64,000 bases of DNA. It comes from Patiria miniata. Its lineage: Eukaryota. The notes below the pieces were generated by a model. The model saw only the letters and a program-made list of their open reading frames with translations, was not told the origin of the DNA and did no database searches. Positions 8,137 through 46,352 of the stretch are shown in pieces; positions within the stretch are counted from its first letter, which is position 1; each line of letters begins with the position of its first letter. Location: NCBI RefSeq assembly GCF_015706575.1, contig NW_024037076.1, forward strand, positions 22,605,286-22,669,285. Reading direction: 5' to 3'. A program made the position numbers and the translations under genes.

Positions 8137-8624
8137 GTCTTGTTTATCATACATAACACATTTTTTTGGATGTCATCGATCTTCGGTGCTTTATAGTAAG
8201 GTAGGTCTGACTAGGTCTAGTACTAGTCTCTATGACCCATTTCCGTACCAACTACCATGGGGATATATTAACAATTAACTTTTGGCAGTGTATATTTTGC
8301 CGGAGACGGCAAACCTTTAGTAAACGTTAGTTTGCCGGATATGCACTGAACATGCGCAGTTACTGTTTTTTTGTACTTAAACATTTTCCGGTGACAAGTT
8401 TTAGTCTGGCTCCATGCCAATATTATCGTTGTTACGTCGTATTCACAAGATGGGATTCAGACCATTTTATAATTTCGGACTTTATTTCCCTTTTAAAAAA
8501 AATCCTCCAGAGCCACAAATCTGAAAAAAAATGTAATACTCTGCAAAAAATGTTTGAGACATGTTAAAATAATAAAAGAAGAATATTCTTATTTATTTGG
8601 GGATGGAAAAAAAAAAACTTAAAA

Positions 8625-9278: not shown

Positions 9279-9318
<40 letters not shown>

Positions 9319-9595
9319 CTTTTAGGCAAAATAAAAAAACAAACATGTTTAGCGTCCTGCCTCTTTGACAAAAAGGAAGGAGGAGGCCCTTTTTTTTTTT
9401 TTTTTTTTTTCAAAATGGCCGCCCGACACATTTTTCAAGCCAACGCAGCCGGGCTATTTTTCAAGATGGTTACCAGCTTTTTTCAAAATGGCCGCCACTT
9501 GGACTCATTGACTATTTCCACAGCTTTATACACGGTATAAAAGTCTAAAAATATGATTTCTTTCGTCAGAGATCGTTAAAATTTATCAATTTTTG

Positions 9596-10055: not shown

Positions 10056-10544
10056 TTTACCACTACACCAAACGTGCTACACAACTTTAGGTGGGAATTT
10101 AATACATCTTATAATTCGGCCCTATTTTAAAGAGTACAGCGCCCTCTGTTGATAGGGATTGCCGCCGGGCAAACCTTTAGTAATCGTTAGTTTGCCGTCA
10201 TTACCTCCGGCAAAATATCCACTATCTTAACTTTTCAGTAAGGTAATTACAGCCCAAGGAAACTCAAAAGTACATCAAAAATGTAACATGAGTAACGTGG
10301 AATTGCCCTAAATATTTTTTTTATGTCGCGGCTATCGTGCACTGTGGCATCGTTTTTGACGGGCCTGTGCGCCCATGCATGCACCGGTCTACGTGGCCGT
10401 GCACAGTCACATTGTTTTGCCGGGCCTGTATGTGCGGGCACTTGCCGGTTAAAAAAAGAGAATCCATGTTATGCTTTATTTTCTCCCATCCCGACATACC
10501 CCCCCCCCCCCCCCGACATACCCCCCCCCCCCCCCCTCGGGTAC

Positions 10545-10800
10545 AATTGTCTCAGGTACGAGTTGTCTCGGGTACGAGTTGTCTCGGGTACGAGTTGTCT
10601 CGGGTACGAGTTGTCTCGGTACGAGTTGTCTCGGGTACGAGTTGCCTCGGGTACGAGTTGCCTCGGGTACGAGTTGCCTCGGGTACGAGTTGCCTCGGGT
10701 ACGAGTTGCCTCGGGTACGAGTTGCCTCGGGTACGAGTTGTCTCGGGTACGAGTTGTCTCGGGTACGAGTTGCCTCGGGTACGAGTTGCCTTGGGTACGA
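10545..10800. repeat. minisatellite, 16-bp unit GGGTACGAGTTG(T/C)CTC in about 16 copies, preceded by a duplicated cgacataccccccccccccccc
   Basis: Read directly. It generates the artefactual overlapping ORFs 10323..11382. Confidence 0.9.
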
Positions 10801-10959
10801 GTCAACATGAATTCCAGACCGGAAACGTCGAGTTTAAACCTCTGGTTCTTTTCAGTTCAGAACCATTCTCTTACTTTCTTAGTTGAAAAATTATTCGCAC
10901 ATGGTGTTTCCGCAAACCTTAGTATCTCCACCATGCAAAGCCTCAATCTTACGTGCGAT

Positions 10960-11399: not shown

Positions 11400-11860
11400 C
11401 GTTTGTGCATGGTGTGGGTCATTAAAGGGGCACTAGGTCCTGAAATCCCCGAAAATTTCATGTTTTGTATTGTTTACTTATCCTATTTCAAACGTGGGAA
11501 AGGAAACCAACCTAATGTCTTACCGTTCTCGAGAAAAGACAAAAAAAACCGGTTGTTTACATTGGACACGACGGAGTACGAATACGTTTTTCGTGTCATT
11601 CTCTAGTGTACGATATACACGTTGTGTGTCTCAGGATCAGCGGTGACCAATCACCAATGCAAAAAAAATGGTTTCTTTAACGTCCGCAAAAGGCGAACAC
11701 TTTACGAATGAAATCATGATGAAATCACAACTAGCATCCAAACGGCTCGAATTTATGGGTCGCAAAAGTGGACCCCGAAATTCGTTCTCGCACACATTAC
11801 ACAGGAATAACACAAAAACGTCCAGTTTTGAAAGGGTAGTTGTGTGGATGTTTCTATCCT
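11400..11860. repeat. interspersed repeat family X, copy 1 (second copy at 41430-41870, same orientation, about 80% identity)
   Basis: Shared blocks aaaggggcactaggtcctga(a/g)atcccc(g/a)aaaatttcatgttttg...gaccaatcaccaatgca...gcaaaagtggacccc(g/a)aaa are present in both copies. Confidence 0.6.
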
Positions 11861-15718: not shown

Positions 15719-16457
15719 GTGAGTAGTTCAAATATGTAGTAGTCATCAACAGGAACATTTTAAATACAATTGAATGATAATTCAAATATACAATGTAGTT
15801 GAAGGTAGGGACCAGGGCCCAATTTCACAGCGCTGCTTAACAGTTAGCAGAAAAGTTGTGCTTAGCATAGCAGAAAAATTTGCTAACCTTAAGCACTATT
15901 TTACCACGTGGATGTGCTAACAGTTGCACTTGCATGGAGATTTCTTATGTTACGTTACTAAGTTAAACACATTTTTCCTCTGAAGTAAGCATGTCTTTTG
16001 CTCTGCTTATGCTTACGGTCTCCATGAAATAGACGGAGCCTCTGTTAGCAGAAAGTCGTGTGCTTAGCAGCGCCGTGAAATTTGTGCTTGTTATTTTGTT
16101 AGCTGTGTAGCTATGTTAGGTTGTGGAGGGGCGCATGCCCCCCCCCCCCCTTCCCCATAAAAAATCATCACCCCCGGGCCCCCCCCCCCCCCCCCCATTT
16201 GATTTTAAATGAATACCGTGTTGAACAGATATTGCCTACAATGAGAACCCTGGCTACGCTGCTGCATTTGCCAGTCTTATAATTCGAAAAATATCTTTTT
16301 TACTTGTATTTTGAGATTTAAACTCTTTTTCAATTTGATGAATTGCCAGTGAGCATATTTATACAATTCTAAATTTTCATGGGAAGTCAACTTGGAATTG
16401 GTTTTTTTTTTACTAAGTATACATTCACTAAGATGATTGTTTTGTTTATATTTCCAG

Positions 16458-17752: not shown

Positions 17753-20575
17753 TACTTGTACTTCACTTCATCCAGTTCAGTTTTATGCAATATTCGTCCA
17801 GTATTTCACTAGGAGAACTGGTGGTGTTTTAGACTGAAATTCTTGGAAACCAAAATGTGTTTGAGAAGAAAATACATTTTTGGGAAGCTTAGTGTTGAAA
17901 GATGTTTTGGAAATGCATGTATTTCACTTTTCAATTGCAAATTTTAATTTTGAAATGCGATTTTAATTGGCAAGTCTTTCACTTATAATTTTTAAGTTGT
18001 AACAGAGGGCTTTGGTGATATGCTCGTAGGTGAGGCTCTCTTCTCTTGCATGAAACAGGCATTCACCTTACTTGCGTCTGCTAATCTGAAGATGTTTAGT
18101 TACTTTTCCATGTCCAGGAGTTTGTACATGATTGATACATTGACTGAAGCTTTAACGTGCCTTGTGTGGCTTAATGTTCTCTTCATGCACACAATATCTG
18201 GCGTGTTGGACTGAAATTGAATTGTTTCAGAAAAGACTGCAAGCATGCCAATCATGGGTAATGTTATCATTAATGAAGCAATTAGGTCCTGTTGTTAAAA
18301 GTTATTTTATTATCGAGAGTGTGATAGGGTATCTTTGTGTAATAGGGTATTTATGTGCAAATCTAACCATGAATGATGTAATTTGGCAGTCAGAATTGTT
18401 TTAGATGAACTAAGCTGATTTTTTTAAAGGTAAGTTCCGCTTGATAATGAAATAGTTATGTAAGTTGTCAAAAGATGTGAAAAGGGCGAAGTTCTTATAT
18501 GTACTTAATTGTCATGTCATCATAAAGGATTACCGCATTATAAATCCCTGGAGATTTTAACAGCACTGAAATGACTTAGTAGTTCCGATAACAGTGGACA
18601 TGTTCTCCAAAAACCAAAGGTAATTGTGTGCTTTATTGTTATCTTTAGTTATCAAAACAAAGATAGTTGTATTTTATTGTTCAAATCAAATAATATCTCT
18701 GATTTAATTGTCTATTTGTTAAGGCCTTAATTGCGTGTTGAGATAACTATACATATTGCATGATACCTAATAGCATTTTGCAATCAAATAGCAATCGTGT
18801 GTAGCATTGAAATTATGCATGACATGCATGTATTTCTAGTATCAATCTAATTTTCATAGAGTTTTTAAATCAAGCAATATTGTAATATTTTCTGAATCAC
18901 CGATTTTGTTCCACATTGCTGTTTTGATTTTTGAGAACGAGAAATTGTGTTTCCTTCTGAAAGCCAAAAACGTTTTATATAGTTGAAGGGCAAACCTTTG
19001 TACTTAACACAGCACAATATGCGCTTTTCCAAAATGTACAATTGTTGTTTTTATTAAGATTTTAGCCTGAGCTGTAGTAAACCAAAGTCTCCTTTACATC
19101 ACACTTCAGGTCTCACGGCATAGTAGTTTAATCTTGTACAAAAGCAGTTATCCCATTACTTTTATTTGTATATACTTGTGTTTATGCGTATTGGTCAGTA
19201 TTAATCCGCCGCACAGTAATATATTTTACCAGCACGTTATTACCATAACTAGTTTGTCACTCTCGCCTTAACCGGTGTCCTGTGACTTTCGGTCTGTTTT
19301 ACCTCATTTTGACTTTAACCCTAACACGTGACTTTTCACTGTTCTACTTTTGTCACTGAGGCATGCGCAATAAAACTGTGTTTCACTGTTGAGTCAAAAA
19401 TTCATACTAAAAAAAAAGTATTACAAAAAATTGTGGACTTTAATACAGGTAGTTTACTTGGAAGTACATGTATGACAATATATTACATGTACCACTTTGG
19501 TAATGAAATAATTGTGTTAATAGATCGAGATGATTTGTGTGCATATCAATGAAAAAATTAACGTGCAAGTTGAGTGATTTTGTAAACTTAAGCGGTTCGA
19601 TGGAACTTGTCATATATTAAATAGTGTATGAAAGAAAGCAATTGTCTATTGGTGGAATTTTCTTCTTTTTTTACCGCGTATAAGACTGGAATGACATATT
19701 CAAGTTCTCTTTCCCTTTTGTGTTAAAAGGAAGAAGTGTCAGAGTATTATTGATATCGTCCATAACGCGTGCTCTTTCCTCAACAAACATCTACGCTTCA
19801 AACCATCTACATTATTCCTCTTTCAACCACATCCCCTTCAATTTAGATGAAAACATTACCAACCACAACTTATGACACTACTTCTACTTCCTTCATGTTT
19901 TAGTCTCAAGCACACTCACCGTGGCTAATTTGACGGGTTCCCCCTTCTTTGCTGTAAATAATTGACATGAGCGTGACTTTACAAATTCTCATTGATTTGG
20001 ATCTGTCACTTAGTCACCGCTGTAAATAGTCATCTGTCCGGCAACGGGAAGGAAAAACACGAACGAACTTCATGTAATTGACTTTTGTATGTACCCTACT
20101 GATCAAGTACGCGCACGTACACTTAAAGCGTAAACACGCTTCAGTTGATTTCTGGTAATTAATTGCACTTTCAATCTCCTCACAGCCTCTCGATGTTACC
20201 CACAATGGCTAAATAAATCTGGAAAGTAAGCAGCGATCATGAATGCAGGGGTTGGGAAAGAGGTCAGTTTAACCATGGAGCAAGGAAAATGTTTAACAAA
20301 AGTGTCTGAAATTTGAAAAAAAAATACAGCAGAGGATACGAAAATGGATGGTCCGCTCAATGGAGACATAGACCATTTGCATGGAAATTTAATTTGTATC
20401 GATGGCAACTCAGAGTGGCGCATTTACTTTGTTTATTATTAACGGGGGCATTTCCTGTGATGGGAAAAGTGGTATCATCCGCCCACTCGCTTCATCACAA
20501 AACGATGCCTGGTTAGGTTGGGAAACATACCCTCTAGTTCCTCTATATACGTGTTCAGAGTTGCTTTCCGCAGAG

Positions 20576-22582
20576 ATGGGGTTTCTCAAGGTGTCTGTGG
20601 TGCTGTTTTCTGCTTTGGTGGTTTTCGGTGATATTCCATCTCGCGCCAAAATCAAATACAAGAGAGACGGACATTTTATCATCGGTGGGCTGTTTCCCGT
20701 TTACAGAATTTCTAGGCCGACTTGTGCTTATCTTGGTTGGAGTACAGTGTACAAAACAGAGTTGATGGTTTACGCCATCGAGCAGATAAATTCTCGTTCA
20801 GATGTACTTCCGAATGTAACCCTTGGATTTGACATTAGACCATACTGTGACGATGAATCCATTGTGATCACGAATGCTTTGTCTATGGCTGGTGTAGATG
20901 GAGTTACTACACATGATGAAGAAAACAGCAAGTTTGTTGGGTTTGTAGGACCAGGCACCAGTGTCACTAGTGTAGCGACTGCTATCACAACAACCGTGCA
21001 CAAGATTCCCGTTGTTTCTTACGCTGGATCCAGTATGGAGCTCAGCGATAAAACTCGGTTTCCTTACTTTCTGCGAACCTGGCCACCAGGCTCCCACCAA
21101 GCTGCGGCTATTGTTGATGTTTTACTCAGATTCAAATGGTCGTATGTTGGACTTGTTTACTCAAGAAACACTTACGGGATTCATGGCGCTCAAGAAATCG
21201 AAAAACTGGCCGATACTCACAACATATGCTTAGCTTTTTCGGTTCCACTTCCCGAGACGGTCGAAAAACGAGATATTGACATTGTTATGGAGAAGATCCT
21301 GATATTCCAGAAAGCTAAAGTCGTCATTTTCTTCGTCCATCCAGCAAAAAGTGGTATCGAAGTTCTTCAATCCTTGATGAAGACGATTCCTGATCATCCA
21401 GGACTAATAATAGTTTCTGGTGATTCTTTCGTGAGCTACTTGAATTATTATGGTGTTGCAAACGTTACGAGAGGTAGTGTTGGTATTCGCTCTTACTACA
21501 AAGAGGTTCCCGGATTCAGGGAACACATCCAAACTGTTCAAATGGAGGGAATGCCGGTGAGCCCGTGGTTCGAATGGTTGCAAAATTATCAAGTATCGAC
21601 AAACCCAAAGTGTCAAAACATAACACAGTGTCCCCTGTACTGTTATGACGGTTATTGCAATGATCATTATGTAGTTGATGCTGTCAGTTTATATGCTTCA
21701 GCTCTAGACAAAGTCTTGAACCAGATATGTAATGGCAATGTGAACTGTCTGATTAAGGAGATGAGTGGTCCATTGCTCATATCATATCTGAAGAATACAA
21801 GCTTTCAAGGTGTTGATGGGCTCTTTACATTCGACGTCCATGGACACCCTGGTGCCAAATATGACCTGACAATGCTTCAGTACCTTAACGGCTCTCATCG
21901 AGAAGTTAACATTGGATTTTGGGATTCACGTTCTGAGAACAACAACCATCTAGACATGACTTTGGATGACCTCCCTTGGCCTGAAGGTCACACATCACCA
22001 CCAATATCTGTTTGTCGTGAGACATGTCTCCCAGGGTACATCTCAGTCCCACTTGTCACCAAATGCTGTTATGGATGCCAACGTTGTCCGATCAACACTA
22101 TCGTAGTCAATGACACAGAGTGTCGTCCGTGTGTAAACTTTTTTTGGCCGAATGTCAACTACACTCGCTGCGAGAGAATCGCACCTTTATCCACTGAATG
22201 GCAAAGTGCTTTGACTTGCTCCATACTTGCTTTTACTGGTCTCGGTGTGGTTCTTACATCTTGCACTGGTACGGGACTGATTTATTACCGTCATCATCTA
22301 TTGATCAAAGCAACGGGACGAGAACTAAGTAGTGCCAACCTCCTAGGTCTCTTACTATCCTGCTTGACTGTTATTCCTATCCTGATCATTCCAACCGAAT
22401 TCTCTTGCGCCTTATCTGACGCCATGATTGCCCTCTGCCTCACGCTGACATACGCTCCTACGCTACTCAAGGTGAATCGCATCCATCGTATCTTCAAAGG
22501 AGCTAAGAAATCAAAAAAACGACCCAAGTTGGTATCTCCACGGCAACAGCTATTCTTGGTATCGGTTTTCACAGCTGTACAA
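20576..22582 (+). CDS. class C (family 3) GPCR resembling metabotropic glutamate receptors, exon 1: signal peptide, Venus-flytrap/ANF-receptor domain, Cys-rich domain, TM1-TM3
   Basis: Signal peptide MGFLKVSVVLFSALVVFG (ATG 20576). GGLFPV and the ...SYAGSSMELSDKTRFPYFLRTWPPGSHQAAAIVDVLLRFKWSYVGLV..YG motif match the mGluR ligand-binding-domain signature. The 9-Cys module is CRETCLPGY...CCYGCQRCP...CRPC. Donor caa|gtaaga at 22583. Confidence 0.8.
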
Positions 22583-22808
22583 GTAAGACTTGATTATTTT
22601 GTCTCTTTTTAATGTCTAATCGTTTCAATTCATCGCCTTCTTCACTTCACACATACCACTTGACCCATCCCCTATATAACAGCATGTCACCGATAGCAAC
22701 ACATGCAAAATGTCGAGTCCTAGTCCTTTTCTTGTGTGTTTTCTTATTATCGAAATGCATGCAGTGTTTTGCGAGTTTTATTAACAAAAACATAGAATGT
22801 CTCTCTTA

Positions 22809-23186
22809 GGCCAAAAAAAAAAGTCTCCGGTTTCTGGTATGCGCGCGCGTCGCTGTAGCCATGCGCGTCGGCAAAATGAAAAAGGTTTTTTTTTTCAATG
22901 AAAGATGATGTCTCAAAATCGCCAAACTCACTGGTTTGACTGGAATCCTGCTGCTGCACATTTTTAACGTGTTTTTTAGATGGAGTTATGGTCGAGAATA
23001 AGCTTTATGTGGCCTCTCTGGACTCCCAATCCCATATAGGCCTATTTGTACTAAGTTTAGTCGGGCACCATTTGCAGTCATCAGCCGACATTTGAAGCAA
23101 AAAAGTCGGGTAAAAAAAAAAAAAGCCGCGTCGCCGCACCACTTTTTGGGCAAGCTCCATACCAGAAACCGGAGACTTTTTTGGGG
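22809..23186. mobile_element. MITE family M copy 1 (TIR ggccaaaaaaaagtctccggtttctggtat), inside the GPCR intron
   Basis: About 90% identical to the reverse complement of 24685-25039. Confidence 0.7.
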
Positions 23187-23265
23187 TTTTAAGTCCCCTC
23201 GGTTTAAGAAATGACGGAAAATGCATTTACTGAGTTATATTTACTAAATCTGTATCTTTATAAAG

Positions 23266-23829
23266 GTACTCATCGTCATTGTGACGGTCATTTTCTACCC
23301 ATCTGTACCCACGATGATCCAACCATCAACACAGGAGAAACTTGTGGAGATTTACTGCCTCTTTCGCTCCGGTTTCTTTGCATCGTGCATCTACAACCTC
23401 CTCTTAGTCCTCGCTTGCTGCTACTACGCCTTCAAGACCCGTAAGGTACCAAGTAACTACAATGAGTCCAAGTTCATCGCCGCCAGCGTCTACTCAACAC
23501 TTCTCTTGGGCTCAGCAGCAGCCTTGGTGTACACTACTGCCGTAGGAGTAGAGACAATAAAAGCTACCCTGAGTTTGGTTGTACTTCTCAATGCTTATCT
23601 GACACTAGGCTGTGTCTACCTGCCAAAGCTATACGCGGCACGTTTCATCCGAGATTTGAGCGTTCTTGGTGTGCGCAGCTCCAGTGGGCACGCGGAAATC
23701 GGGCCCTCATCAGTTAGTGATGTCGGGTCGGCGTTGGCTGATAATTCCTATAGCGGTGGGCCTTTGAGTATTTCTCAAAGAAGGTCCGCCGTGTATCCAG
23801 AAAAAGTAAAATCCTCGGACAACATCTAA
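23266..23829 (+). CDS. same class C GPCR, exon 2 (TM4-TM7 plus C-tail; stop TAA 23827-23829)
   Basis: Acceptor aaag|gta at 23264-23265, phase 0. The junction ...FTAVQ|VLIVIVTVIFYP completes a TM helix. The TM7 motif LPKLY is the mGluR-type PKxY. Confidence 0.75.
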   Translation, partial: VLIVIVTVIFYPSVPTMIQPSTQEKLVEIYCLFRSGFFASCIYNLLLVLACCYYAFKTRKVPSNYNESKFIAASVYSTLLLGSAAALVYTTAVGVETIKATLSLVVLLNAYLTLGCVYLPKLYAARFIRDLSVLGVRSSSGHAEIGPSSVSDVGSALADNSYSGGPLSISQRRSAVYPEKVKSSDNI

Positions 23830-24684
23830 ATCGAAGACTACATAATACAACATTTAATAACTGACTTTCAGAGCCCGCAAGATATAGGGAATGCTACTTG
23901 TTTATTGAATAATTTTTGTGCAAGGAAACCCATCCATCAACGACAATAGAATATTGTTTCGTTAATATTAGTTTCTTGGAAAGGTTTTTGAAACAATATG
24001 ATATAGTATAGTAAAATATATACAAAATGTATAGTCTTAGTCTTATTAATTTATTCATGTAAAATATTAAACTTCATCATTGTGTAAAATTCATTGAAAC
24101 AAGCTGTGTTGTTTTGTAGTTTGAGCTAATAGAGTGTTGTTATAAACATCGTGTGTTTTAATGCAGTGGCTATTCTGATTCGTTTAGACTTAGTTTAATA
24201 TACGACAGTATCATTATCATGGTTTTATAAAAGTGCTCGATATTGAATAGTTTAATGAGCACCGTCTGGCTGTCATGAAGTGGGAAATTTGATTGACCAA
24301 ATCACATGGTGCAATTCAAGCCGATGCATGGGTAACCTACTCTGCCATAGCCAATCCGTTCAATATCGCCAATCAATACCGCCTTACCCGACCCATTCCT
24401 GATTTTCTTATTAACAGTGAGTTAAATTGTATCCTCTTGTTACCAGGATTTTACAGGAATTCAAAAGGCTTTTTCATGCAGGAGAATACATTTTTTCTGA
24501 CGAACAAAATCAGAAGTTGTGATAGTTCGACTGAGGCACTTTTTAAAGCTTTCCAGGCACCTTGTTATACTGCATGAGCCCCCGTACAAAGAAAATTAAA
24601 GCTGGTACAGGCGCCCACTCCTGTTCGCCTTTACAAGGTTTAGTTGATAATACGACGTACGTACTGACTTAATATGTGCACTAA

Positions 24685-25039
24685 GGCCAAAAAAAGTCTC
24701 CGGTTTCTGGTATGGAGCTTGCCCCAAAAGTGGTGCGGCTTTTTTTTTTTTTTACCTGATTTTTTTGCTTCAAATGTTGGCTGATGACTGCAAATGGTGC
24801 CCGACTAAACTTAGTGCAAATATATGGGAGTACAGAGAGGCCACATAAAGCTTATTCTCGACCATAACCCAATCTAAAAACACGTTAAAATTGTGCAGCA
24901 GCAGGATTCCAGTCAAACCAGTGAGTTTGGCGGTTTTGAGACATCATCTTTCATTGAAAAAAACCCTTTTTCATTTTGCCGACGCGCATGGCTACGGCGA
25001 CGCGCGCGTATACCAGAAACCGGAGAATTTTTTTTGGCC
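24685..25039. mobile_element. MITE family M copy 2 (inverse orientation, both TIRs intact, flanked by TAA on each side)
   Basis: The termini are ggccaaaaaaagtctccggtttctggtat ... ataccagaaaccggagaattttttttggcc, with flanks cactaa| and |taatct. A 3-bp TAA TSD would suggest a PIF/Harbinger-type MITE. Confidence 0.65.
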
Positions 25040-25489
25040 TAATCTATGTGGGCTCTTAATACATTTTTGCAATGGTCCTTCTATAAGTGGCCTGGATGCG
25101 ACGGGGAAATGTAGGGCGGAGACTGACGGGGGAAATAAGTGTCCATCCCATAGCATATGGATTTGCTGTTATTTCTTATTTCAAATAGATGCCTGCATCA
25201 TGTACAACATTTTGCAAACCGAAAAATACCATATTACATGTTTATGAACAAACTTGACTGTATAAGGAATAATACGAGTCTCAAGCATCCTGTGAAAATC
25301 ATGAAACCTTTTGTGCTAGTCATTTTCAAGAAAAGTGGATATTTTGTATTAATTTCCAGCGATGGTAAGCCGACCATCGTTGGAAAATTCCTTCCTCAAT
25401 GGTTTTTCCAGCATGTCCAGCATCAATGACAACACAGTGTTGCTTGCTTTATAACACGAAAGACCAGGGGCGTAGCACGGTCATTTTGA

Positions 25490-25790
25490 TTGGGGGGGGG
25501 GGGCTACAATTTTTTGAAAAGGGCACTTGCACATCCGCTGGTACCATCTGTCAATGGGGGGGGGGGCGCAATTTATCCACTTACTTTTAAAAAGGGCACT
25601 GGTTCACAAACAAAAGGGAATCTTTAAAAAAAAAGCCACTCTTTAAAAAATATTGTGGGGGAGCGATGGTGAAAAGGGCATTTGAATGGAAAAGGGCAGT
25701 CATGGGGGGGGGGTGATACCCCTTACCACGACTCCCCCCCCCCCCCCCCGCCAAACTCCCCCCCCCCCCCCCTCAGCTACGCATTATGAA
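25490..25790. repeat. G-run/C-run flanked low-complexity element with four (g)aaaagggca units
   Basis: Runs G12, G13 and G11 are followed by C16 and C15. The repeats read gaaaagggcacttgcac, aaaaagggcactggttc, gaaaagggcatttgaat and gaaaagggcagtcatgg. Confidence 0.4.
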
Positions 25791-26496
25791 GACCATACAT
25801 TTCTGAAAATTAAAGCAAAACCGAAACTGTGGTGTATACAGTACATGCAACCTCCTTAACGTAAGAAACAAGCCCGTCACAAAAATTAGAATAGTGAAAT
25901 AAAAAGGGAGAGGCCTTTAAATGGGAATTTCCCTTTAATATGTGGTCACGTGACAGCAACTGATTTAATATAGTCAGATAGAAAAGAATTTGGCTCCAAA
26001 TCACCCTCAGTTAACATATACGCAGTACAGGTGTCAGACCTAAGTCGTCGTGGATTTTTTTTAGTGTATGGTAACCAGACGTTTGTTAATGAAAATGGAT
26101 AGCGGTGTGAACATTATAATCAGACTATTTTATCGTTGCCAGATGTTCATCGGTAAATGAGAATCCTATCCTATCGGACAAGTGGCCGGTCAACAAAACT
26201 GTTGTGTTGGATAAAAGGTGAGAAATATTGCCAAATATAGAATCCGCTCGGGTATTATAAGTGTGCATGTTTTCCAATAAGTTTTATAACGTGATTCCCA
26301 TTTGCTAAAACCGAATGTTGTTAAATTTTGCGTCACAAAAAAACTGTGTCTATTCCTTCCGGAGTTCCTCCTCCATGATGATCATCACTGTCATGACTGT
26401 CACTCTCCATAATGACCATGCTCTCTAGGCCTGCCTAGCCTAGTTAGTTTTAGACCCCGTTCCTATTTACTTAGGCATGTTAGGCAGTTAGGCAGT

Positions 26497-27474
26497 GGAT
26501 ATTTAGCCGGAGACGGCATACCTTTAGTAAACGTTAGCTTGCCGGATATGCACTGAACATGCGCAGTTACTTTTTTCGCAGTGGCTATTGTTACGGCAGC
26601 CGTAACGCATTTCCCATTTTCTATCGTTACGGTAGACTGCAACTTTTATAAAAACATGACAAGAAAATATAAAATTAGAGGGAAAAAAGTGAATTTGAAC
26701 GTTACAAAATTCGGACTTTATTTCCCTTTTAAAAAAAATCCAAAGCCTCAGGTTAAAAAAGGAAAAAAATTCGAGTGCAAAACTGAGATTCGAACCCGCA
26801 ACCTCGCGGTGCAAAATCCTACCCTCTATCGACTGAGCTGTTGCACTGCTCGCTAAAACGTGGGGAAACAAATAATTATATACCTGCGTGCGTATCAAAA
26901 AAGTATCGTGGAGGGCGCTAAACAACGACTGCCGTAACGATAGCCACTTCGTACTTTTTTTTGGTACTTTTCCGGTGACTGATTTTAGTCTGGCTGCGCT
27001 TCGTCATGTCCGTGCCAACATTATCATTGTAACTTCGTATTCACAAGATGGGAATCAGACCATTTTACAATTTCGGACTTTATTTCCCTTTAAGGCTTTA
27101 TTAAAAAAAATCCTCCTGAGCCACAAATCTTAAAAAGAAAATGTAATAGGCCTACCCTGCAATAAAATGTTTCAGACATGTAAAATTAATGAAAGAAGAA
27201 TGTTCTTATTTTGGGGGATGGGGGAAAAAAACCTTAGGAATGTCGCCAGCGGGGATCGAGATCGAACCCGGGTCTTCCCGCTCATGAGATCCGTTGCTTA
27301 TCCACTAGACCAAGGGTGCTTCACAACCTTTGGTGGTTGTTTAATATATCTTGTAATTCAACTCTATCTTAGAGAGTACAGCTATACAGGGCCCTCTGTT
27401 GATATGGATTGCCGCCGGCAAACCTTTAGTAAACGTTAGCTTGCCGGCATTACCTCCGGCAATATATCCACTAT
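26497..27474. mobile_element. composite TIR element copy B, same family as 8290-10226, with a different nested insertion
   Basis: The termini match copy A. The internal tRNA-like module at 27235-27310 on the minus strand (…gacccgggttcgatctcgatcccc…) resembles a tRNA-Glu/Asp T-arm. Confidence 0.55.
26579..26950. mobile_element. nested TIR insertion (gtggctattgttacggcagccgtaacg ... cgactgccgtaacgatagccac) carrying a tRNA-like sequence at 26770-26850 on the minus strand
   Basis: It is absent from the homologous position in copy A. The reverse complement contains agctcagtcgatagag...gcgggttcgaatc, the D-loop and T-loop hallmarks, but the anticodon stem does not pair. Confidence 0.45.
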
Positions 27475-27483
27475 CTATTTTAT

Positions 27484-36684: not shown

Positions 36685-37615
36685 GTAAGTTTTATTTACA
36701 TTCTTCAGTGTGTTTAACTGTCAGTTCTAATATAAGAGATAGTTAAAACTGTTGGCAGATAAACTTCCTCTTTTGAGAATTTTCATAAGCAACGATTTTA
36801 TATTTATGAGAATGGCAGCATGAAATCCTTGTGGTTTGCTTGAGTTGAGTTTGGGGAATGAGTGTTGATTGTTTTCCGCTGTCCATAACTGAAATGTGTG
36901 CTTTGTCATCTGTCTATTTGAATGATGACGTTATACAAATATTGAATGCTTCGAGTGGTGTAGTAAAACTAGGCTCCCGAGGTGATCCATGGACCATTCT
37001 ATTTTCCCGAGGCGAAGCCGAGGGAAAATAGAATGGTCCATGGATCACCGAGGGAGGCTAGTTTTACTTTACCACGAGATAAAGCATTCAATATTTGTTT
37101 TATAACACTTCACCCACAGATTCTGCTTGATTTTAATATTTTACATGATTTAAATCTGAACACAGTTGAAATAAACTTCAATTTCAATACAAAATTGGTG
37201 GAAAATGTATTTCTCTCTTAAAAACTAACCCTTCACAAAATGTTTGAACCCAAGTCTGCGGCGCGCTCTCTTTGGAATAATACGCGCTACGCACAACGCG
37301 CAACGCGCACACCAGCATGCATTTGCACACAAATACCGCGCCGTGGAAATAGTACTTTGGTTGCTAATGGTGTAGTATTTTGGTTGCTATGCGCATAGTA
37401 CTTTTGGCCGTGCACAGAAAGATAGCAAAATTAGAAAGTAGCATGTGACTCGCTCTCGGCCAATCAAGACACAGAATCTGTGGGTGAGGTGTTATAAAAA
37501 TTGTCATCATTTCTCATCCAGCTACTATTTTTAAGTAGAAAAAAGGAGATGAATTTCCAAAGCAACATAACAGTGTGTAGATAATTTATAAGGTTTTGTT
37601 GTGTTATCTTCTCAG

Positions 37616-37685
37616 GATTATTCAGCAGTATATAATGAGAGACGAAGCTGGAGCCCTGGTACCAGTATCTAGTGATGTCAATAAG
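37616..37685 (+). CDS. CCDC186: CCDC186-like exon 15
   Basis: (K)IIQQYIMRDEAGALVPVSSDVNK is close to human [24 protein letters not shown]. Confidence 0.8.
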
Positions 37686-37689
37686 GTAG

Positions 37690-38100
37690 GTATAGGACCA
37701 TGTCTTAATTACTTGGCTATGACCAGCAGCAGCACACAGGTCTATAGGATGTAGAGTCAGCAGCTACCATAATTACTTGGCTATGACCAGCAGCAGCACA
37801 CAGGTCTATAGGATGTAGATTCAGCAGCTACCATAATTACTTGGCTATGACCAGCAGCAGCACACAGGTCTATAGGATGTAGATTCAGCAGCTACCATAA
37901 TTACTTGGCTATGTCCAGCAGCAGCACACAGGTCTATAGGATGTAGATTCAGCAGCTACCATAATTACTTGGCTATGACCAGCAGCAGCACACAGGTCTA
38001 TAGGATGTAGATCCAGCAGCTACCATAATTACTTGCCTATGGCCAGCTGCAGCAGCACACAGGTCTTTAGGGTGTAGCTTTAGCAGCTACCATAATAACT
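37690..38100. repeat. tandem repeat, about 60-bp unit in about 6 copies (ggctatgaccagcagcagcacacaggtctataggatgtagattcagcagctaccataattactt), in CCDC186 intron 15
   Basis: Seen directly. Confidence 0.9.
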
Positions 38101-39185
38101 TGACTATGCCCCCCCCCCCTTCTAAATTTTCACCCAATTATGTTTTGTCCTCTCTTCTTCTGATTCATACTAAACCACTGCCATGACCCTAAATTTATCC
38201 ACTCACAATTTGTAACCAAATTAAATGTAGTAAATAAAATACATACTTCTCTGTAACTGTGTAAGATGTTTTCACAATTATGTCAATACTCTTTGGTTTT
38301 ATACTTGTTTCTTATTTTGTTTGATCCGTTCTGAAAACCTCATGCCTGTATGCTTTTCTCCAGCAACAGTAATCTGACACAACTGCCAGATTCTTCAAAG
38401 AGTTTTCCTGCCCTGAGAATAACCCAGTTCACAATTGCATCTTGTTTTTCTGTCACTTTTCCCCCAATAAATTGCTGCTTTGTTTTCCTTTGCTATCATG
38501 CTTCCATTGTTTTCAGTCCCCATCCGGCTTACGAAGCACTATGGTAAGAATTCCCACATCACTGAATGGACCTCTTGCTTTTCACGGCCGTCTTGTCATC
38601 AGCTTTGCTCATGTTTGTAGTCTGCAGAGCATGCAAGCTAACAGCATGAAAAGCACAGTTTTGGTGTTGCTTTGAAAAAAAAATGTCCTTCACTGGCTTT
38701 TTCTTCATCCCGAAAAGTATTTGAATTTTGCGATTTTACTTTCATTTGGGCAAGTTCTTATTCTTTAAACTGCATGCTAAAAGTGTTTTCTACATTTGTA
38801 AAAAAAAAATTATTTGAACTGCCATAAACTGCCAAATCTTTTTATAGTTATATGCATGCCATATAGCTGATCAAATTTAACCATGAAAAGTTACTCCTGA
38901 TGTCGCTAAATTATTTCAAAGGGATTGCAAAATAGACCTAGTGAATTACATGTCTCAACTGTAGCTATTGCTGTGATTTTTTTTTGTGTGTTGCTTGCTG
39001 TCCTTGATTTTTTTAAGAAGGAAATCGTTATTTTGAATTGCGTTTTGTTTTGTTGATACCAAGTACATTCTGTAGATCATTTTGTATTAGTTGCTTTGAA
39101 TGATAAACACCTCATTTGCACTGAGTGAAATTAGAATTATTATTTTCTATTGGTTTAAAATTTGTCTTCATTTTACGTAAACTTT

Positions 39186-40342: not shown

Positions 40343-41429
40343 TAAATAATACAATCTCATCATAGAAGGCATAGCAGCAGCATCATCAACCCTCCATATA
40401 TTAGACAGCTTCATCATTTATTGATGGAGGTCAACAGAAAGTGCTCATATTTTAAGAGAGCCTAAATTTCTTAGATAGGAAAAGCATTTTTTTTCAAGGC
40501 AAGATGATGCCTGGCACCCTAATAGAAGGAGCAACGTGGTAGCCTTACTGAACACAATATTACTTGGTTTTTCTAATGTATCAATATGTTTATAGAAGGA
40601 CCATTGAATGTTTACGTAGGTTTTAAACTCTGTACGATTCACACACAATATGTATTCACTGTTTCATCCAAGCTGCATTCTAACTCTTTCTGTTGGTTTT
40701 TCTCCCTATGGGCTCCTGTGCAAACAAGGACTCACTGATGCGCGTACTGGTTCGCATGCATATAAAGCAAAGTACACATGCCTAATTTATTCTGAATGTG
40801 CGCAATCCTATGGCATCGTCGCTTGAGCGTCAAGGAATCGTTGGCAATGCGTTTGAATGTCTCTCCAAGTGGTCTCCCCCAACTCTCCCTTTCTTACCGT
40901 TGAGGGGGTACTTGTGCACGGAGCCCATAGTTTGTTTATTTTGATCTTTTAAGCATGTCATGCTTGCTTTATGCTCAAAATGATAAACAATATGCACAAA
41001 TTAATTCCAATTAAGATTTTATCCTCTATCTATTTAGTTTTGTTCTTTTAATGATGTATATTGATAAAGCATTCTAACAGAGTATAGCCCTAAATATGGC
41101 AAGGCATTCCAAAAATTCCAAAATATACATGTATGTTGTAATTTTTGTATATATTGTATAATTTATGAAAGAAAACACATGTACATAGCAAGCGAAAAAT
41201 AAATGGTTAGAATTTACAGGGGGTAAGTGTTATAACTGCATGCAACAAAATTGCTGCCATGTATATTATTCATGGTTCTAGGTTGTTGTTTTTTCATATG
41301 TATTCAACCTGAATCAGAATCATAGTTTCAACCAGGACGTGGTATGCTTTAACCTCCTGTTATTGTTCTTTATTGTTGCATGAAAAGACAAGTACATAAT
41401 GACAGAAAGGGAATGGTATTGTTTGATAT

Positions 41430-41870
41430 TAAAGGGGCACTAGGTCCTGAGATCCCCAAAAATTTCATGTTTTGGATTGTTTACTTATCCTATTTTAAAC
41501 ATCTGGTTGAAAGGAAACCAACCTAATGTCTTACCTAAAAAACCTGGTTGTTTACATTCACATAACGAATATTTTTTTCCTGTCATTCAATGTACACTTT
41601 GTGCATGTGTCTGTTATAACGTACATATACAGCACCATGCTTGCGAACAGCAATGACCAATCACCAATGCACAAAATGTGGTTTCTTACACGTCCGCACA
41701 AGGCGAACTCTTTTTATGGATGAAATCACAACTAGCATCAAAACAGCTCAACTTTTTTAGGCCGCAAAAGTGGACCCCAAAAGTCATTCTCGCACGCATA
41801 ATACAGAAATAACACAAAAACGCCAAGTTTTTATAGGATAGTTTTGTGGATGTTTATATGGTCTGCAATG
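41430..41870. repeat. interspersed repeat family X, copy 2
   Basis: Homologous to 11400-11860. Confidence 0.6.
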
Positions 41871-44204
41871 AAATGCATGTACATGTGAATCAACAACTTA
41901 TAAACTGCTTTGTTGTTTGGAGGGGGCTAAATCTACATAAATTTGGATCTTGAGGAAAAGCAATATAGAAATGGTTTAATAGAAAAGATGAGGTGAGATT
42001 TTTCAAAGAGAAATGGGAATAAAGTACAATAAACAAAATAAATGTTGACACCCTTTACAATATGAGATCCCATTGTGTATAGTCCACCTAGTTCATATTA
42101 AGAATATATGTCTAGAATTACTGAATGATGAATGTAAAACTATTTCTGAGTTTACTTAAATAATTTACCTTGTAAAAGTATCACTCAACAACGATATCGC
42201 TTTAAAATATGTCTGTCACTTGAACATTAACTAGGTGCATTTGCATTTTGTTCGATGCATACATTTTGTTTGATGCATGTACATGTATATGGGAAACAAA
42301 TCTGTCACTTTTTTCCAGAGATCAATAATACCCACTCCATATATCATAACTAAGAGAAACATTTCAAGTCATTTGTTTTTAAATTATGTATAAACATGTA
42401 GATTTATGCATCAGCACATACCACACAAATGATGTCCGTTGAGTACATGTATTCAAATTTGATTTTAGTCAGGCCAAACATTCTAACCACATTTAAGACA
42501 GATTTGTTTGTGTATTTAAACTAGTTTATCCTATGAGCTATATGACCAAGTTCACACCTATAGATGTTTACTTAGTTTAATTAACCATATGTAGTGTAAT
42601 TTTATGATGATTGTTAGCACATGAAACATGTTTAACCAAGTGCAATCATATTTTAATAATTTTCAGTACTTTCTGATAAGTAGCATCTTCATTACAGAGT
42701 ATTGGGCATTGTTAATCTACAACATTTAACAGGTTGAATCGTTGTTTGTATATGTTTGGTAAGGAGTAGGATGTATTCCGTTTAATTATATTTCTGAGGG
42801 CATCAAGGCGTATATCTGAATAACAAATAGAAGGGATATCCATATGAAATTATTGAATTTCCTAGAAACCTACATGCACAAACACCATTAATTGTCATCA
42901 AGAAAGACAAAGCAATCTATACTGACTTGTCGAAGGACAGGATCTTACTTAAAAAAAACAACTTTCATTTAAGAGAATGTTTTTTTTGGTTTTTTTTTTT
43001 GTTGACATGTTCTTGAGATTGTCATCAACTTGTTATACACCGTTGTCAAGTTCACATTACATGTATGGACACAATGTCGCTCTTCATGTTGACAATTAAT
43101 TGAGTGTCTTATCAAATTCTACGTCCTGGTAATCATAATTTCAGAAAGCATAAGTAACTCAGCACCTTTCAAATTCTTTATGTGATCAACCATATCAGCA
43201 TTTTTAGTTTTTAGACGTAAATATCTTTTAAATGACGGCATTAAAGAAAATAAATTCCGGCATTCAGATTCTGATGATAAAAAAAAAGTATGCTCATTCT
43301 GGAGGGTTTTTAATTTTTTATTTAAATTTTTAGAAACCGGGGAGAAATTAAAACTTGTGTTCTGCTCTTTTATGTAAAATTGCAGATATATTACCTTTTG
43401 GTATATATCCCTCTTTATTTCTTTGCATTAATAGGGAAGGGTTACATTGGGCTCCCCCTCCTAACTAGAGGATTGTGCCCCTCCCTCTTGTGCCCTTCCC
43501 CCCCCCCCCCCCTTCAGAAAAAAAACCATTGAGTGCCCCCCTTCTGTACCTCACTTAGTTACGTCACGTTTGAGTCAACAAAGATATAGGCCTAGTTAAG
43601 TTGTAACGAACACATTCATGATATTGGTGATAACGCCAATTTGATGCATATATTACATTTCCGTTGATTAATGGGGAAAAGTCCAATGGCCATCAGCTCA
43701 ACTTCGTAGACTTGTATTAGTCTCACACAGTGCCTTACAGTAGGTCTTATCCACGTGAATGGAACGGGCGCTTTACAAAAAGTGAATGCAGGACTTGTAC
43801 AATTCTATGTACAGTTGATTGAACATTCTCTTGATTAAATTCCAAAAATGATCATGGTCAGGGTGGAGACTCATTTATCTCCATGAAGAAAAGGAGTTAA
43901 ATTAATTTATATCATCCAAAGCAGCCCTTTAATTTATTGACAAGTGTGACATATACAGATGAAGTATGACACATTGACATTTTGACGACCGAAATAAATG
44001 TCAAGACCCCTCAATTTTGTATTAACTTTTGTCGAGGCTCTAAAACATCGACTGAAAGACTAAATTCATTATCCTCACATGGAAAGTATGACTGTGTATT
44101 GACAAAGTTAAGAGTGGAGCTTGTGTGAACACAACATGTCAACGCAAAATTTCGTGTTAGCACTTAATTTAATGAAGAGTAACATATTAACTGAATCACT
44201 TAGA

Positions 44205-44328: not shown

Positions 44329-45321
44329 ATGATGGAAGGCATGAGTAACGCAAATATTTCTCAGATGGAATCCATGGATCAGAAAACAATTCATATTCTT
44401 AAACTAATCGTCATGACGCTCCTAACTTCCACAACAATTGCAGCAAATTTGGTGTGTTTTTCTGTCCTGGCGTTTGACTGGAAGAACCGTAACGTTTCTC
44501 AAGTCTTTATGATGTCGCTAACTGTATCAGACCTTGCTGTTGGTATCGTCATGTGTGTTCCTGTCACCGTGTCTTTGGCTGTTAATCGCTGGCCGTTTGG
44601 AGATGTATTTTGCCTTGTGAATGCCATCGTGACGTACTTCTTATTAATAATAGCATGTGGCTGTGTTCTGTTTGTCAACCTGGAGAGATTTGTGACAATA
44701 ATGTGGCCCTTGCGAAGTGTGACATATATAACTGTAAAACGAGCTGAAATTGTTGTCATTTGCCTGTGGACCTCTTCGTTTGTATTAGCTCTTTTATATG
44801 GATTACTGCCTTGGAGAGCAGCTTTATATGCCGAAAGAGCTCATCAGTGTGTGGTAGACCCTACTGACGAAGATGTTATCGATATCTTTGGTACTTTGTC
44901 AACTGGGATGTATTTTACAGTTCTCCTCGTCTGTTTCACACAGTATTTCTACTTGTATCGAATTGTACGTCACCATCGTCGAGTTATCATGCCCGCCCCC
45001 GCGCTACATGCTCCGCCACGCCCACGAGGATTGTCCTCGTCAGATTTCAAAACAGCTACAACATTTTTCCTCATGGTTGCAACGTTGGCAGTAACATGGA
45101 CTCCGGAAACCATTGTGATTCTTTATGAATCAGTAACTCGCCGAGATGCTTCACCTTCCACCATTTTCTCAGCTCAGTTCCTTGGCTACTGTAACGGCAT
45201 TTTAAATGTCGTGATTTATTTTGTTAGAAATGAACCGTTTCGACAATCCGCTAAAAGGTTTTGGCGAAAATTGAAAAGACCGATTGGTTGCCAGTCTTGG
45301 CTTCAGTCTGAGAGAGCTTAA
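44329..45321 (+). CDS. intronless orphan class A (rhodopsin-like) GPCR, 330 aa
   Basis: ORF 44329..45321. It has an N-terminal N-glycosylation site (NAN/IS) and 7 TM segments. The motifs are TM1 N (NLVCFSV), TM2 LTVSDLAVG, TM3 Cys plus ERF (DRY variant: VNLERFVTI), TM4 W (CLWTSS), TM6 TWTP (CWxP variant), TM7 NVVIY (NPxxY variant) and helix-8 FVRN. There is no Lys in TM7, so it is not an opsin. Confidence 0.8.
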   Translation: MMEGMSNANISQMESMDQKTIHILKLIVMTLLTSTTIAANLVCFSVLAFDWKNRNVSQVFMMSLTVSDLAVGIVMCVPVTVSLAVNRWPFGDVFCLVNAIVTYFLLIIACGCVLFVNLERFVTIMWPLRSVTYITVKRAEIVVICLWTSSFVLALLYGLLPWRAALYAERAHQCVVDPTDEDVIDIFGTLSTGMYFTVLLVCFTQYFYLYRIVRHHRRVIMPAPALHAPPRPRGLSSSDFKTATTFFLMVATLAVTWTPETIVILYESVTRRDASPSTIFSAQFLGYCNGILNVVIYFVRNEPFRQSAKRFWRKLKRPIGCQSWLQSERA

Positions 45322-45420
45322 ACTCAATATGACATTTCCAATTCTAAAGATTACTATTGCCTCTGACATTTCTTCGAGAGCCTAATGTAGGATAACCGCA
45401 ACAACTGCTTATCCGAACAT

Positions 45421-46352
45421 AGCCCGACTGCGTCTGGCCGTACAGTACTATCGCAAGCTCTGTAGTACGGCCAGACGCTGAATGCTTCCCAAAAGACTGA
45501 ATTTTTTTGGCCGCTGATGTAGCGATTTTGCTACATCTTTTGATCGAGATTATCTTTTCATCCAGGACAAAAATTTCCACATTTAAGGTTCTTAGTCGTA
45601 GAGCAACTCATACCTTTCCGAAAAAACGTTCTTTGGTCTCAATATTTTCATCCATCTGGCCAAATAACGACTTTCAGTGATCATCTTCCACAAATATCGT
45701 CCCGAAAATGCTCCCCCATGCGATTTCAAAATGGCGGCCGCGCTGTAACTCATGAATATGCATGAAAAGTCTGTGACGTATGACCTCGTGTTTGTGGACG
45801 TGCGTGCGGCGGCGCCGTACGTACATGTACGTACATGTACATTACTTGTAGACAACAGCCCAGTACGTGCATGCACACCGCCGCGCGGACGTAAGTGTGC
45901 ATGCACGTACTGGGCTGTTGTCTACAAGTAATGTACATGTACGTACATGTACGTACGGCGCCGCCGCACGCACGTCCAAAAACACGAGGTCATACGTCAC
46001 AGACTTTTCATGCATATTCATGAGTTACAGCGCGGCCGCCATTTTGAAATCGCATGGGGGAGCATTTTCGGGACGATATTTGTGGAAGATGATCACTGAA
46101 AGTCGTTATTTGGCCAGATGGATGAAAATATTGAGACCAAAGAACGTTTTTTCGAAAAGGTACGAGTTGCTCTACGACTAAGAACCTTAACTGTGGAAAT
46201 TTTTGTCCTGGATGAAAAGATAATCTCGATCAAAAGATGTAGCAAAATCGCTACATCAGCGGCCAAAAAAATTCAGTCTTTTGGGAAGCATTCAGCGTCT
46301 GGCCGTACTACAGAGCTTGCGATAGTACTGTACGGCCAGACGCAGTCGGGCT
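45421..46352. mobile_element. foldback-type element: a 932-bp near-perfect palindrome (arms about 455 bp, asymmetric central loop of about 16 bp) flanked by the 10-bp direct repeat ATCCGAACAT as a target-site duplication
   Basis: Left flank ...atccgaacat|agcccgactgcg..., right flank ...cgcagtcgggct|aatccgaacat. The arms differ at only a few positions. The mirror-image ORFs 45592..45906(-) and 45867..46181(+) are artefacts. It lies 100 bp 3' of the class A GPCR stop codon. Confidence 0.8.

What the first reader, a model, noticed from the sequence alone, without database searches (positions are those of the whole stretch)
20576..25039. Inverted pair of MITEs brackets the terminal (TM4-TM7) exon of the mGluR-like GPCR
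Copy 1 (22809-23186) lies in the single intron, 80 bp upstream of the acceptor at 23264-23265. An inverse-orientation copy (24685-25039) lies about 850 bp past the stop. Inverted repeats flanking an exon can pair in the pre-mRNA to promote back-splicing or exon skipping, or mediate DNA inversion or deletion. The exon they bracket encodes four of the seven helices, so any such event would abolish receptor function.
Basis: inference. Interest (0 to 1): 0.5.

Follow-up and report, generated by a model that had tools for sequence, protein, structure and literature searches.

The report
Two transposon relics flanking a receptor exon
Two copies of a small non-coding transposon sit in opposite orientation on either side of the last exon of a sea-star glutamate-receptor-like gene; this is real but ordinary, and nothing indicates that it alters splicing of the gene.

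Summary
The window is Patiria miniata (bat star) DNA. It carries a two-exon class C GPCR gene: CDS 20576-22582 and 23266-23829, 856 aa. Two copies of a 355-378 bp element lie in opposite orientation at 22809-23186 and 24685-25039. They are about 94% identical. One is in the intron, 78 nt before the acceptor. The other is 855 nt past the stop codon.

Each copy has about 30-nt terminal inverted repeats starting GGCC. Copy 2 has a perfect TAA/TAA target-site duplication, which is the PIF/Harbinger (Tourist-like) MITE signature. A diverged relative of the element lies near a homologous gene in another asteroid-like assembly.

The functional reading is not supported. A terminal exon has no 5' splice site to back-splice from and no downstream exon to skip to. 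Two ATTAAA signals precede copy 2, so it may not be transcribed. The ORF is intact, and the NCBI model uses the same splice junction and stop. Inverted repeats would give inversion, not deletion.

The best explanation is two separately inserted, tolerated MITE copies in non-coding DNA. A 342-bp RNA duplex could form only if transcription read through to copy 2. Interest is low.

The parts
20576..22582 (+). Coding exon 1 of the class C GPCR (aa 1-669): signal peptide, ANF_receptor, NCD3G, TM1-TM3 and the N-terminal half of TM4
   Evidence: Translation; Pfam; TM profile; 100% match to the P. miniata protein P0001 from M104 onward
22583..23265 (+). Phase-0 intron of 683 nt (GTAAGA...ATAAAG); 378 nt of it is MITE copy 1
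   Evidence: Sequence. The junction TAVQ|VLIV matches P0001. A homologue in L001 has an intron at the same position and phase
22806..22808 (.). TTA flank of copy 1 (putative target-site duplication, left)
   Evidence: Sequence; alignment with copy 2
22809..23186 (+). MITE copy 1 (378 bp). TIRs at 22809-22840 and about 23157-23186. The right terminus is degenerate (GGGG), followed by TT and then TTA at 23189-23191
23266..23829 (+). Terminal coding exon (aa 670-856 plus stop TAA at 23827-23829): C-terminal half of TM4, TM5-TM7 and the cytoplasmic tail
24066..24071 (+). ATTAAA poly(A)-signal variant, 237 nt past the stop, with a GU-rich tract at about 24105-24125. It is a candidate 3' end that would exclude copy 2 from the mRNA
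   Evidence: Hexamer scan and sequence. Use of the site is inferred, not shown
24595..24600 (+). Second ATTAAA, 85 nt before copy 2
24417..24422 (+). Best cryptic donor-like site between the exon and copy 2 (ACA|GTGAGT). It is the only route by which the exon could be back-spliced. There is no evidence it is used
   Evidence: Consensus scan
24682..24684 (.). TAA target-site duplication of copy 2 (left)
   Evidence: Sequence
24685..25039 (-). MITE copy 2 (355 bp), inverted relative to copy 1. TIRs at 24685-24713 and 25010-25039
   Evidence: (pair I6)
25040..25042 (.). TAA target-site duplication of copy 2 (right)
   Evidence: Sequence

Best explanation
Two members of one family of non-autonomous DNA transposons inserted separately at TWA target sites in non-coding DNA of a Patiria miniata class C GPCR gene. 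The family is a Tourist-like, PIF/Harbinger-type MITE of about 360 bp. One copy went into the only coding-region intron and the other into the 3' flank. They may be independent insertions or a local hop of one copy.

Both copies miss the splice signals and the coding sequence. They have since decayed to about 94% mutual identity and are tolerated passengers. Their inverted orientation is one of two equally likely outcomes and has no demonstrated role.

Shown here: the element anatomy, separate TSDs for copy 2, the intact gene, and an intron that is native to the gene. Inferred: the superfamily assignment, neutrality, and that the mRNA probably ends before copy 2.
For: - Anatomy: the copies are 355 and 378 bp with about 30-nt TIRs starting GGCC. 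They are too short to encode a transposase, and they match no Rfam family or tRNA.
- TSD: copy 2 is flanked by TAA on both sides, its own 3-bp TSD. A 3-bp TAA/TTA TSD is the PIF/Harbinger and Tourist hallmark (PMC2836001).
- Not a single unit: the outer flanks of the pair are TTA on the left and TAA on the right. They differ, so the 2.2-kb unit did not insert as one piece.
- Family is real: a diverged relative at L001:6815-7100 (another species' assembly) shares the TIR core and internal blocks. Its local alignment score is 46, against a maximum of 31 in 1000 shuffles and 26 in 94 control windows of the same locus.
- Gene is intact: the ORF is uninterrupted with all three class C domains. The NCBI model uses the same junction and stop.
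- Exon is native: the L001 homologue has a phase-0 intron at the same codon (..FQ|LLIS..). That intron is 624 nt and carries no MITE.
- Splice signals are spared: copy 1 leaves 78 nt before the acceptor, including a TACTAAA branch-point-like motif.
Against: - Both copies in this 64-kb window lie within 2.2 kb of each other, and there is none in the other 62 kb. If the two copies were placed uniformly at random, the chance of that spacing is roughly 0.07 (my estimate). This hints at local transposition, or just possibly at retention for a reason.
- Copy 1's right-hand TSD is not clean.
- Genome-wide copy number could not be measured, and no autonomous partner was found.
- The L001 relative also lies about 1.15 kb past the stop of a homologous gene, in the same orientation as copy 2. 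That is one data point that chance explains but does not prove.
Confidence: 0.85

Rival explanations
1. RNA-level effect. Transcription reads through to copy 2. The intronic and downstream copies form a dsRNA stem of about 340 bp that loops out the last exon. That stem then does one of three things. It drives back-splicing from a cryptic donor such as 24417 to the 23266 acceptor. It interferes with 3' splice-site use or 3'-end formation. Or it acts as an ADAR or Dicer substrate that lowers receptor expression.
For: - The duplex is very stable: -617 kcal/mol against -238 for the two self-folds combined.
- The MFE of the read-through RNA has 342 copy1:copy2 pairs.
- Donor-like sites exist at 23453 and 24417.
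- Last exons are occasionally circularised through cryptic donors (PMC11766002).
Against: - The exon has no canonical donor and nothing follows it.
- Copy 2 is not intronic.
- Two ATTAAA hexamers, one with a GU-rich downstream tract, precede copy 2.
- The acceptor is transcribed 1.4 kb before copy 2, so the intron can be removed first.
- The cryptic donors score no better than chance matches (7 of 9 consensus positions).
- No expression data are available.
Confidence: 0.05
2. DNA-level effect. The inverted pair acts as a substrate for homologous recombination that inverts 23187-24684 and so flips the exon. Alternatively, transposase acting on ends from the two different copies (alternative transposition) produces null alleles that segregate in the population.
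For: - About 355 bp at 94% identity in inverted orientation, 1.5 kb apart.
- All four TIR cores are intact or carry one mismatch, so the ends could still be recognised if a transposase is active.
Against: - The longest uninterrupted identical stretches are short. The ungapped blocks are only 53-88 nt and themselves contain mismatches, so recombination would be inefficient.
- The assembled allele has the gene in normal order.
- No active autonomous element was seen: the large ORFs of the window have no transposase domain.
- This is a potential, not an observed event.
Confidence: 0.06
3. The 2.2-kb segment 22809-25039 is a single element with long terminal inverted repeats, or a composite transposon, that carried the TM4-TM7 exon into this gene.
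For: The two copies form the ends of a segment bounded by TIRs.
Against: - Copy 2 has its own TAA/TAA duplication, while the outer flanks are TTA and TAA.
- The intron position and phase are the same in a homologue from another species that has no MITE in its intron.
- Exon 2 completes the same 7tm_3 domain that exon 1 begins, matched end to end on the profile (aa 541-790 to positions 2-251 of 251).
Confidence: 0.01

Closest known systems
Tourist-like MITEs of the PIF/Harbinger superfamily (for example rice mPing)
   Same: Short (about 360 bp) and non-coding, with TIRs and a 3-bp TAA/TTA target-site duplication (for the family definition). It inserts in genic non-coding DNA. From my own memory, not tested here, the mPing TIR also begins GGCC.
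   Different: The host is an echinoderm. No autonomous partner with matching TIRs was identified here. Copy number in the genome is not known. No sequence similarity to mPing was tested.
Inverted Alu (or MIR) pairs in the introns flanking circularised exons in mammals
   Same: Two copies of one repeat family in inverted orientation on either side of an exon, able to form a long RNA duplex.
   Different: In that system both repeats lie in introns and the exon has both splice sites. Here the exon is terminal, has no donor, and the downstream repeat lies beyond the stop and beyond two poly(A)-signal variants.
Inverted repeated Alus (IRAlus) in 3' UTRs, as ADAR-edited, nuclear-retained dsRNA (my own knowledge)
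   Same: Would apply if both copies were on one transcript, since the stem is a long and nearly perfect dsRNA.
   Different: Here one arm is intronic and is removed by splicing. The other arm may not be transcribed. No editing data are available.
Alternative transposition by closely linked Ac/Ds or P-element ends, generating inversions and deletions (my own knowledge)
   Same: Two nearby elements whose four recognisable termini could be paired in non-standard combinations.
   Different: No evidence of an active transposase or of any rearranged allele.

Membership tests
[quoted passage not shown] | Short length (under about 800 bp) with no coding capacity for a transposase | tested here: met
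   The copies are 378 and 355 bp. Only chance ORFs of 118 aa or less overlap them. Indels differ between the two copies.
[quoted passage not shown] | Terminal inverted repeats | tested here: met
   The copy 2 TIR is 32 nt and 88% complementary (pair I6). The 18-nt TIR core is found at all four ends, against 0.02 expected by chance.
[quoted passage not shown] | Target-site duplication flanking each copy | tested here: met
   Copy 2 has TAA|GGCC...GGCC|TAA, which is exact. Copy 1 has TTA|GGCC...GGGG(TT)|TTA, offset by 2 nt at a degenerate end, so it is only suggestive.
[quoted passage not shown] | Many dispersed copies in the genome | not testable with these tools
   There are two copies in the window and one diverged relative in another species' contig, L001. 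None was found in L002-L004. P. miniata genomic loci could not be retrieved. The metagenome scan gave 0 hits.
PIF/Harbinger superfamily (Tourist-like) | 3-bp TSD, usually TAA or TTA | tested here: met
   Copy 2 has TAA/TAA and copy 1 has a left TTA. The family definition is from PMC2836001. TA (Tc1/mariner) and TTAA (piggyBac) duplications do not fit the flanks of copy 2.
PIF/Harbinger superfamily (Tourist-like) | TIRs shared with an autonomous element that encodes a DDE transposase and a Myb-like ORF1 | not testable with these tools
   The large ORFs of the window contain no transposase domain.
Inverted-repeat-driven exon circularisation locus | The bracketed exon has both a 3' and a 5' splice site | tested here: not met
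   The exon contains the stop codon and the end of the protein, as in P0001 and its full-length paralogues. Only weak cryptic donor-like sites follow the exon. The general rule is from PMC11766002.
Inverted-repeat-driven exon circularisation locus | Complementary repeats lie in the upstream and the downstream intron | tested here: not met
   Copy 1 is intronic. Copy 2 lies 855 nt past the stop, in the 3' UTR or intergenic DNA, after ATTAAA hexamers at 24066 and 24595.
Inverted-repeat-driven exon circularisation locus | Back-splice junction reads | not testable with these tools
   No RNA-seq data are available.
Class C (family 3) GPCR, mGluR-like | ANF_receptor (Venus flytrap) + NCD3G cysteine-rich domain + 7tm_3 | tested here: met
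   ANF_receptor E=3.3e-50 and 7tm_3 E=1.7e-49, both above the Pfam cutoff. NCD3G scores 38.0 bits, just under its 38.9 cutoff. The best hits are asteroid 'metabotropic glutamate receptor-like' proteins. Ligand specificity was not tested.

The most novel reading that the evidence does not exclude
Transcription of the receptor gene reads through the weak ATTAAA sites. The intronic and downstream MITE copies then form a dsRNA stem of about 340 bp around the last exon. That stem either enables back-splicing from the cryptic GTGAGT donor at 24417 into the 23266 acceptor, giving a circRNA of about 1.15 kb from a terminal exon. Or it marks the pre-mRNA for ADAR editing or siRNA production, making this receptor a TE-regulated gene. 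The diverged MITE relative found downstream of a homologous receptor in another sea-star-like genome would then hint at recurrent use.
Probability: 0.03. Interest if true: 0.4.

Novelty: new member of a known kind. Interest (0 to 1): 0.08.

Why it matters
It matters little. The result documents a Tourist-like MITE family in asteroid echinoderms and a clean example of MITE insertions tolerated in an intron and a 3' flank.

It also shows why 'inverted repeats bracket an exon' should not be read as a circRNA or exon-skipping signal when the exon is terminal. If the unlikely RNA-level reading were true, it would be an example of TE-mediated regulation or circularisation of a last exon in a non-model deuterostome.

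Tried and rejected
1. I tried to fetch other P. miniata genomic loci to count MITE copies and compare paralogue gene structures. P0001, P0002 and P0008 are not on record.
2. An exact scan of metagenome contigs for the 23-nt TIR found 0 hits.
3. Three further echinoderm-like contigs carrying homologous receptors (L002-L004, 46.7 kb) hold no copy of the element.
4. Rfam at gathering threshold on the whole window, Rfam at E<=1 on 22583-25100, and a tRNA scan all found nothing. The element is therefore not a known RNA gene or a tRNA-derived SINE.
5. I rejected the composite or long-TIR element that captured the exon. Copy 2 has its own TSD, the outer flanks differ, and the intron position is conserved in a MITE-free homologue.
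6. I rejected piggyBac (TTAA) and Tc1/mariner (TA) assignments, because the flanks of copy 2 duplicate exactly 3 bp.
7. I looked for non-coding conservation between the window's intron or 3' flank and L001. There is none apart from the MITE TIR.
8. A literature search for a described P. miniata MITE family found nothing specific.
Full report
**Observation**

The region was read directly. A repeat search on 20000-26000 found five collinear inverted blocks of 88, 82, 79, 56 and 53 nt, each 95-98% complementary. They link 22815-23185 to 24687-25035.

A gapped alignment of copy 1 with the reverse complement of copy 2 gives 343 matches, 21 mismatches and 29 gap columns. That is 94% identity over aligned bases. 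The five indel blocks include a 12-bp and a 7-bp one.

Each copy ends in an inverted repeat of about 30 nt: GGCC-A(n)-GTCTCCGGTTTCTGGTAT. The 18-nt core occurs four times in the 64-kb window, exactly at the four termini, against 0.02 expected. No other copy or fragment is present in the window.

**The gene**

- 20576-22582 is an open frame that starts with a signal-peptide-like segment.
- It ends at a donor CAA|GTAAGA.
- 23266-23829 follows an AG at 23264-23265 and continues the frame to TAA at 23827-23829.
- The 856-aa product has ANF_receptor (E=3e-50), NCD3G and 7tm_3 (E=2e-49) domains.

The best database hit, at 100% identity, is 'metabotropic glutamate receptor 1-like [Patiria miniata]' (P0001). 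The window is therefore bat-star DNA. P0001 has the same exon junction (TAVQ|VLIV) and the same C-terminus. It starts at the internal Met104. Full-length paralogues align over 96% of my model, so the longer model is probably right.

A hydropathy profile places TM4 at aa 660-678. The junction at 669|670 therefore splits TM4. The last exon encodes half of TM4, TM5-TM7 and the tail. tblastn finds no other class C receptor sequence in the window.

**What the repeats are**

- They are 355 and 378 bp, too short to encode a transposase.
- They match no Rfam family even at E<=1, and no tRNA.
- Copy 2 is flanked by TAA on both sides (24682-24684 and 25040-25042).
- Copy 1, in the opposite orientation, has TTA on its left (22806-22808). 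Its right end is degenerate (GGGG instead of GGCC), followed by TT and then TTA (23189-23191).

A 3-bp TAA/TTA duplication is the hallmark of PIF/Harbinger transposons and their Tourist-like MITEs (PMC2836001). TA or TTAA duplications do not fit the flanks of copy 2. The outer flanks of the pair differ (TTA against TAA), and copy 2 has its own duplication. The two copies therefore inserted separately, not as one 2.2-kb unit.

**Related sequences**

P. miniata genomic loci could not be fetched. A metagenome scan for the TIR found nothing.

An ENA contig carrying a homologous receptor was available as L001 (P0006). P0006 is 49% identical to exon 1 here, and 62% identical to the P. miniata and Acanthaster paralogues. 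It shows two things.

First, its gene has a phase-0 intron at exactly the same codon (..TSFQ|LLISII..). That intron is 624 nt and has no MITE. The intron and the last exon are therefore native to this gene family.

Second, at L001:6815-7100 there is a diverged relative of the element. It shares the TIR core (GTCTCTGGTTTCTGGT ... ATACCAGAAACC ... GGCC) and internal blocks. Its local alignment score is 46, against a maximum of 31 in 1000 shuffles and 26 in 94 control windows of the same locus. The family therefore exists in more than one asteroid-like genome. Three contigs from a different assembly hold no copy. Apart from the element, the non-coding flanks of the two loci are not alignable.

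**Testing the proposed mechanism**

If both copies were on one RNA they would pair.

- The duplex energy is -617 kcal/mol, against -124 and -114 for the self-folds.
- The MFE of a hypothetical RNA spanning 22583-25060 has 342 copy1:copy2 base pairs.

This is trivial for 94%-identical inverted repeats, and it does not make the proposed outcomes possible.

- Back-splicing joins a 5' splice site downstream of an exon to the acceptor upstream of it. First and last exons are normally excluded because they lack one of these sites. The exceptions use cryptic exonic donors (PMC11766002).
- This exon carries the stop codon and the end of the protein.
- Only three sites between the acceptor and the end of copy 2 reach 7 of 9 consensus donor positions: 23453, 24417 and 24921. 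That is no better than chance matches.
- Exon skipping needs a further exon to splice to, and none is evident.
- Copy 2 is not in an intron. There is no AATAAA between the stop and copy 2.
- ATTAAA occurs at 24066, followed by a GU-rich tract at about 24105-24125, and again at 24595. The mRNA may well end before copy 2. This is inference, since no expression data were available.
- The acceptor is transcribed 1.4 kb before copy 2, which gives time for the intron to be removed first.
- At the DNA level, inverted repeats give inversion rather than deletion. The ungapped blocks are only 53-88 nt and themselves contain mismatches.
- The assembled allele is in normal order with an intact ORF.

**Conclusion**

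The classification as MITEs flanking the last coding exon of an mGluR-like receptor is supported. The functional inference is not.

The best explanation is two separately inserted, tolerated copies of a Tourist-like MITE in non-coding DNA (confidence about 0.85). Their closeness may reflect local transposition. There are two copies within 2.2 kb and none in the other 62 kb, which I estimate at roughly 0.07 under uniform placement.

The residual possibilities each rate a few per cent and need RNA-seq or population data. They are a dsRNA effect on read-through transcripts, circularisation through a cryptic donor, and an inversion polymorphism. The feature is ordinary and interest is low.

Noticed in passing
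window 45420-46353 (arms 45420-45878 and 45895-46353); neighbouring ORF 44329-45321 (+): A near-perfect large palindrome with 459-nt arms, 99% complementary, and a 16-nt loop. It starts 99 nt after the end of an intronless rhodopsin-family GPCR ORF (7tm_1, E=2e-30). It could be a foldback element or an assembly artefact.
   Followed up: no
L001:6815-7100 (ENA ERZ26222911 contig): A diverged relative of the MITE lies about 1.15 kb past the stop of a homologous class C receptor, in the same orientation as copy 2 of the window. The surrounding non-coding DNA is not alignable. This is probably coincidence in a MITE-rich genome, but it is only one data point.
   Followed up: partly
window 20576-20884: The NCBI protein model P0001 starts at internal Met104. 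The frame from ATG 20576 adds a signal peptide and 103 residues that align with full-length paralogues. The public model looks N-terminally truncated, or it uses a different 5' exon.
   Followed up: partly
window 10523-10834 and 37642-38118: Two tandem arrays: a 16-bp unit (GGGTACGAGTTGYCTC, about 19 copies) preceded by poly-C tracts, and a 64-bp unit (about 7 copies).
   Followed up: no
window 9281-9320, 10496-10540, 16175-16195, 25736-25775, 43500-43515, 47325-47345: Repeated long poly-C runs, up to about 37 C at 9281. One lies 700 bp downstream of MITE copy 2. They may be parts of another repeat family or sequencing-prone homopolymers.
   Followed up: no
window 8281-8531 and 10135-10227 versus 26488-27139 and 27385-27476; 11421-11857 versus 41428-41859: Other dispersed repeat families in direct orientation at 84-95% identity. 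The DNA downstream of the receptor gene is therefore generally transposon-rich.
   Followed up: no
window 36955-37075: A 59-nt-arm hairpin, 88% complementary, with a 3-nt loop. No Rfam match at the gathering threshold.
   Followed up: no
L001:7110-7300: A tandem array with a unit of about 33 bp (GAGTACTCGACTACAACTCTAGAGCTGGACTCGT) starts about 20 bp after the MITE relative in the other species' contig.
   Followed up: no
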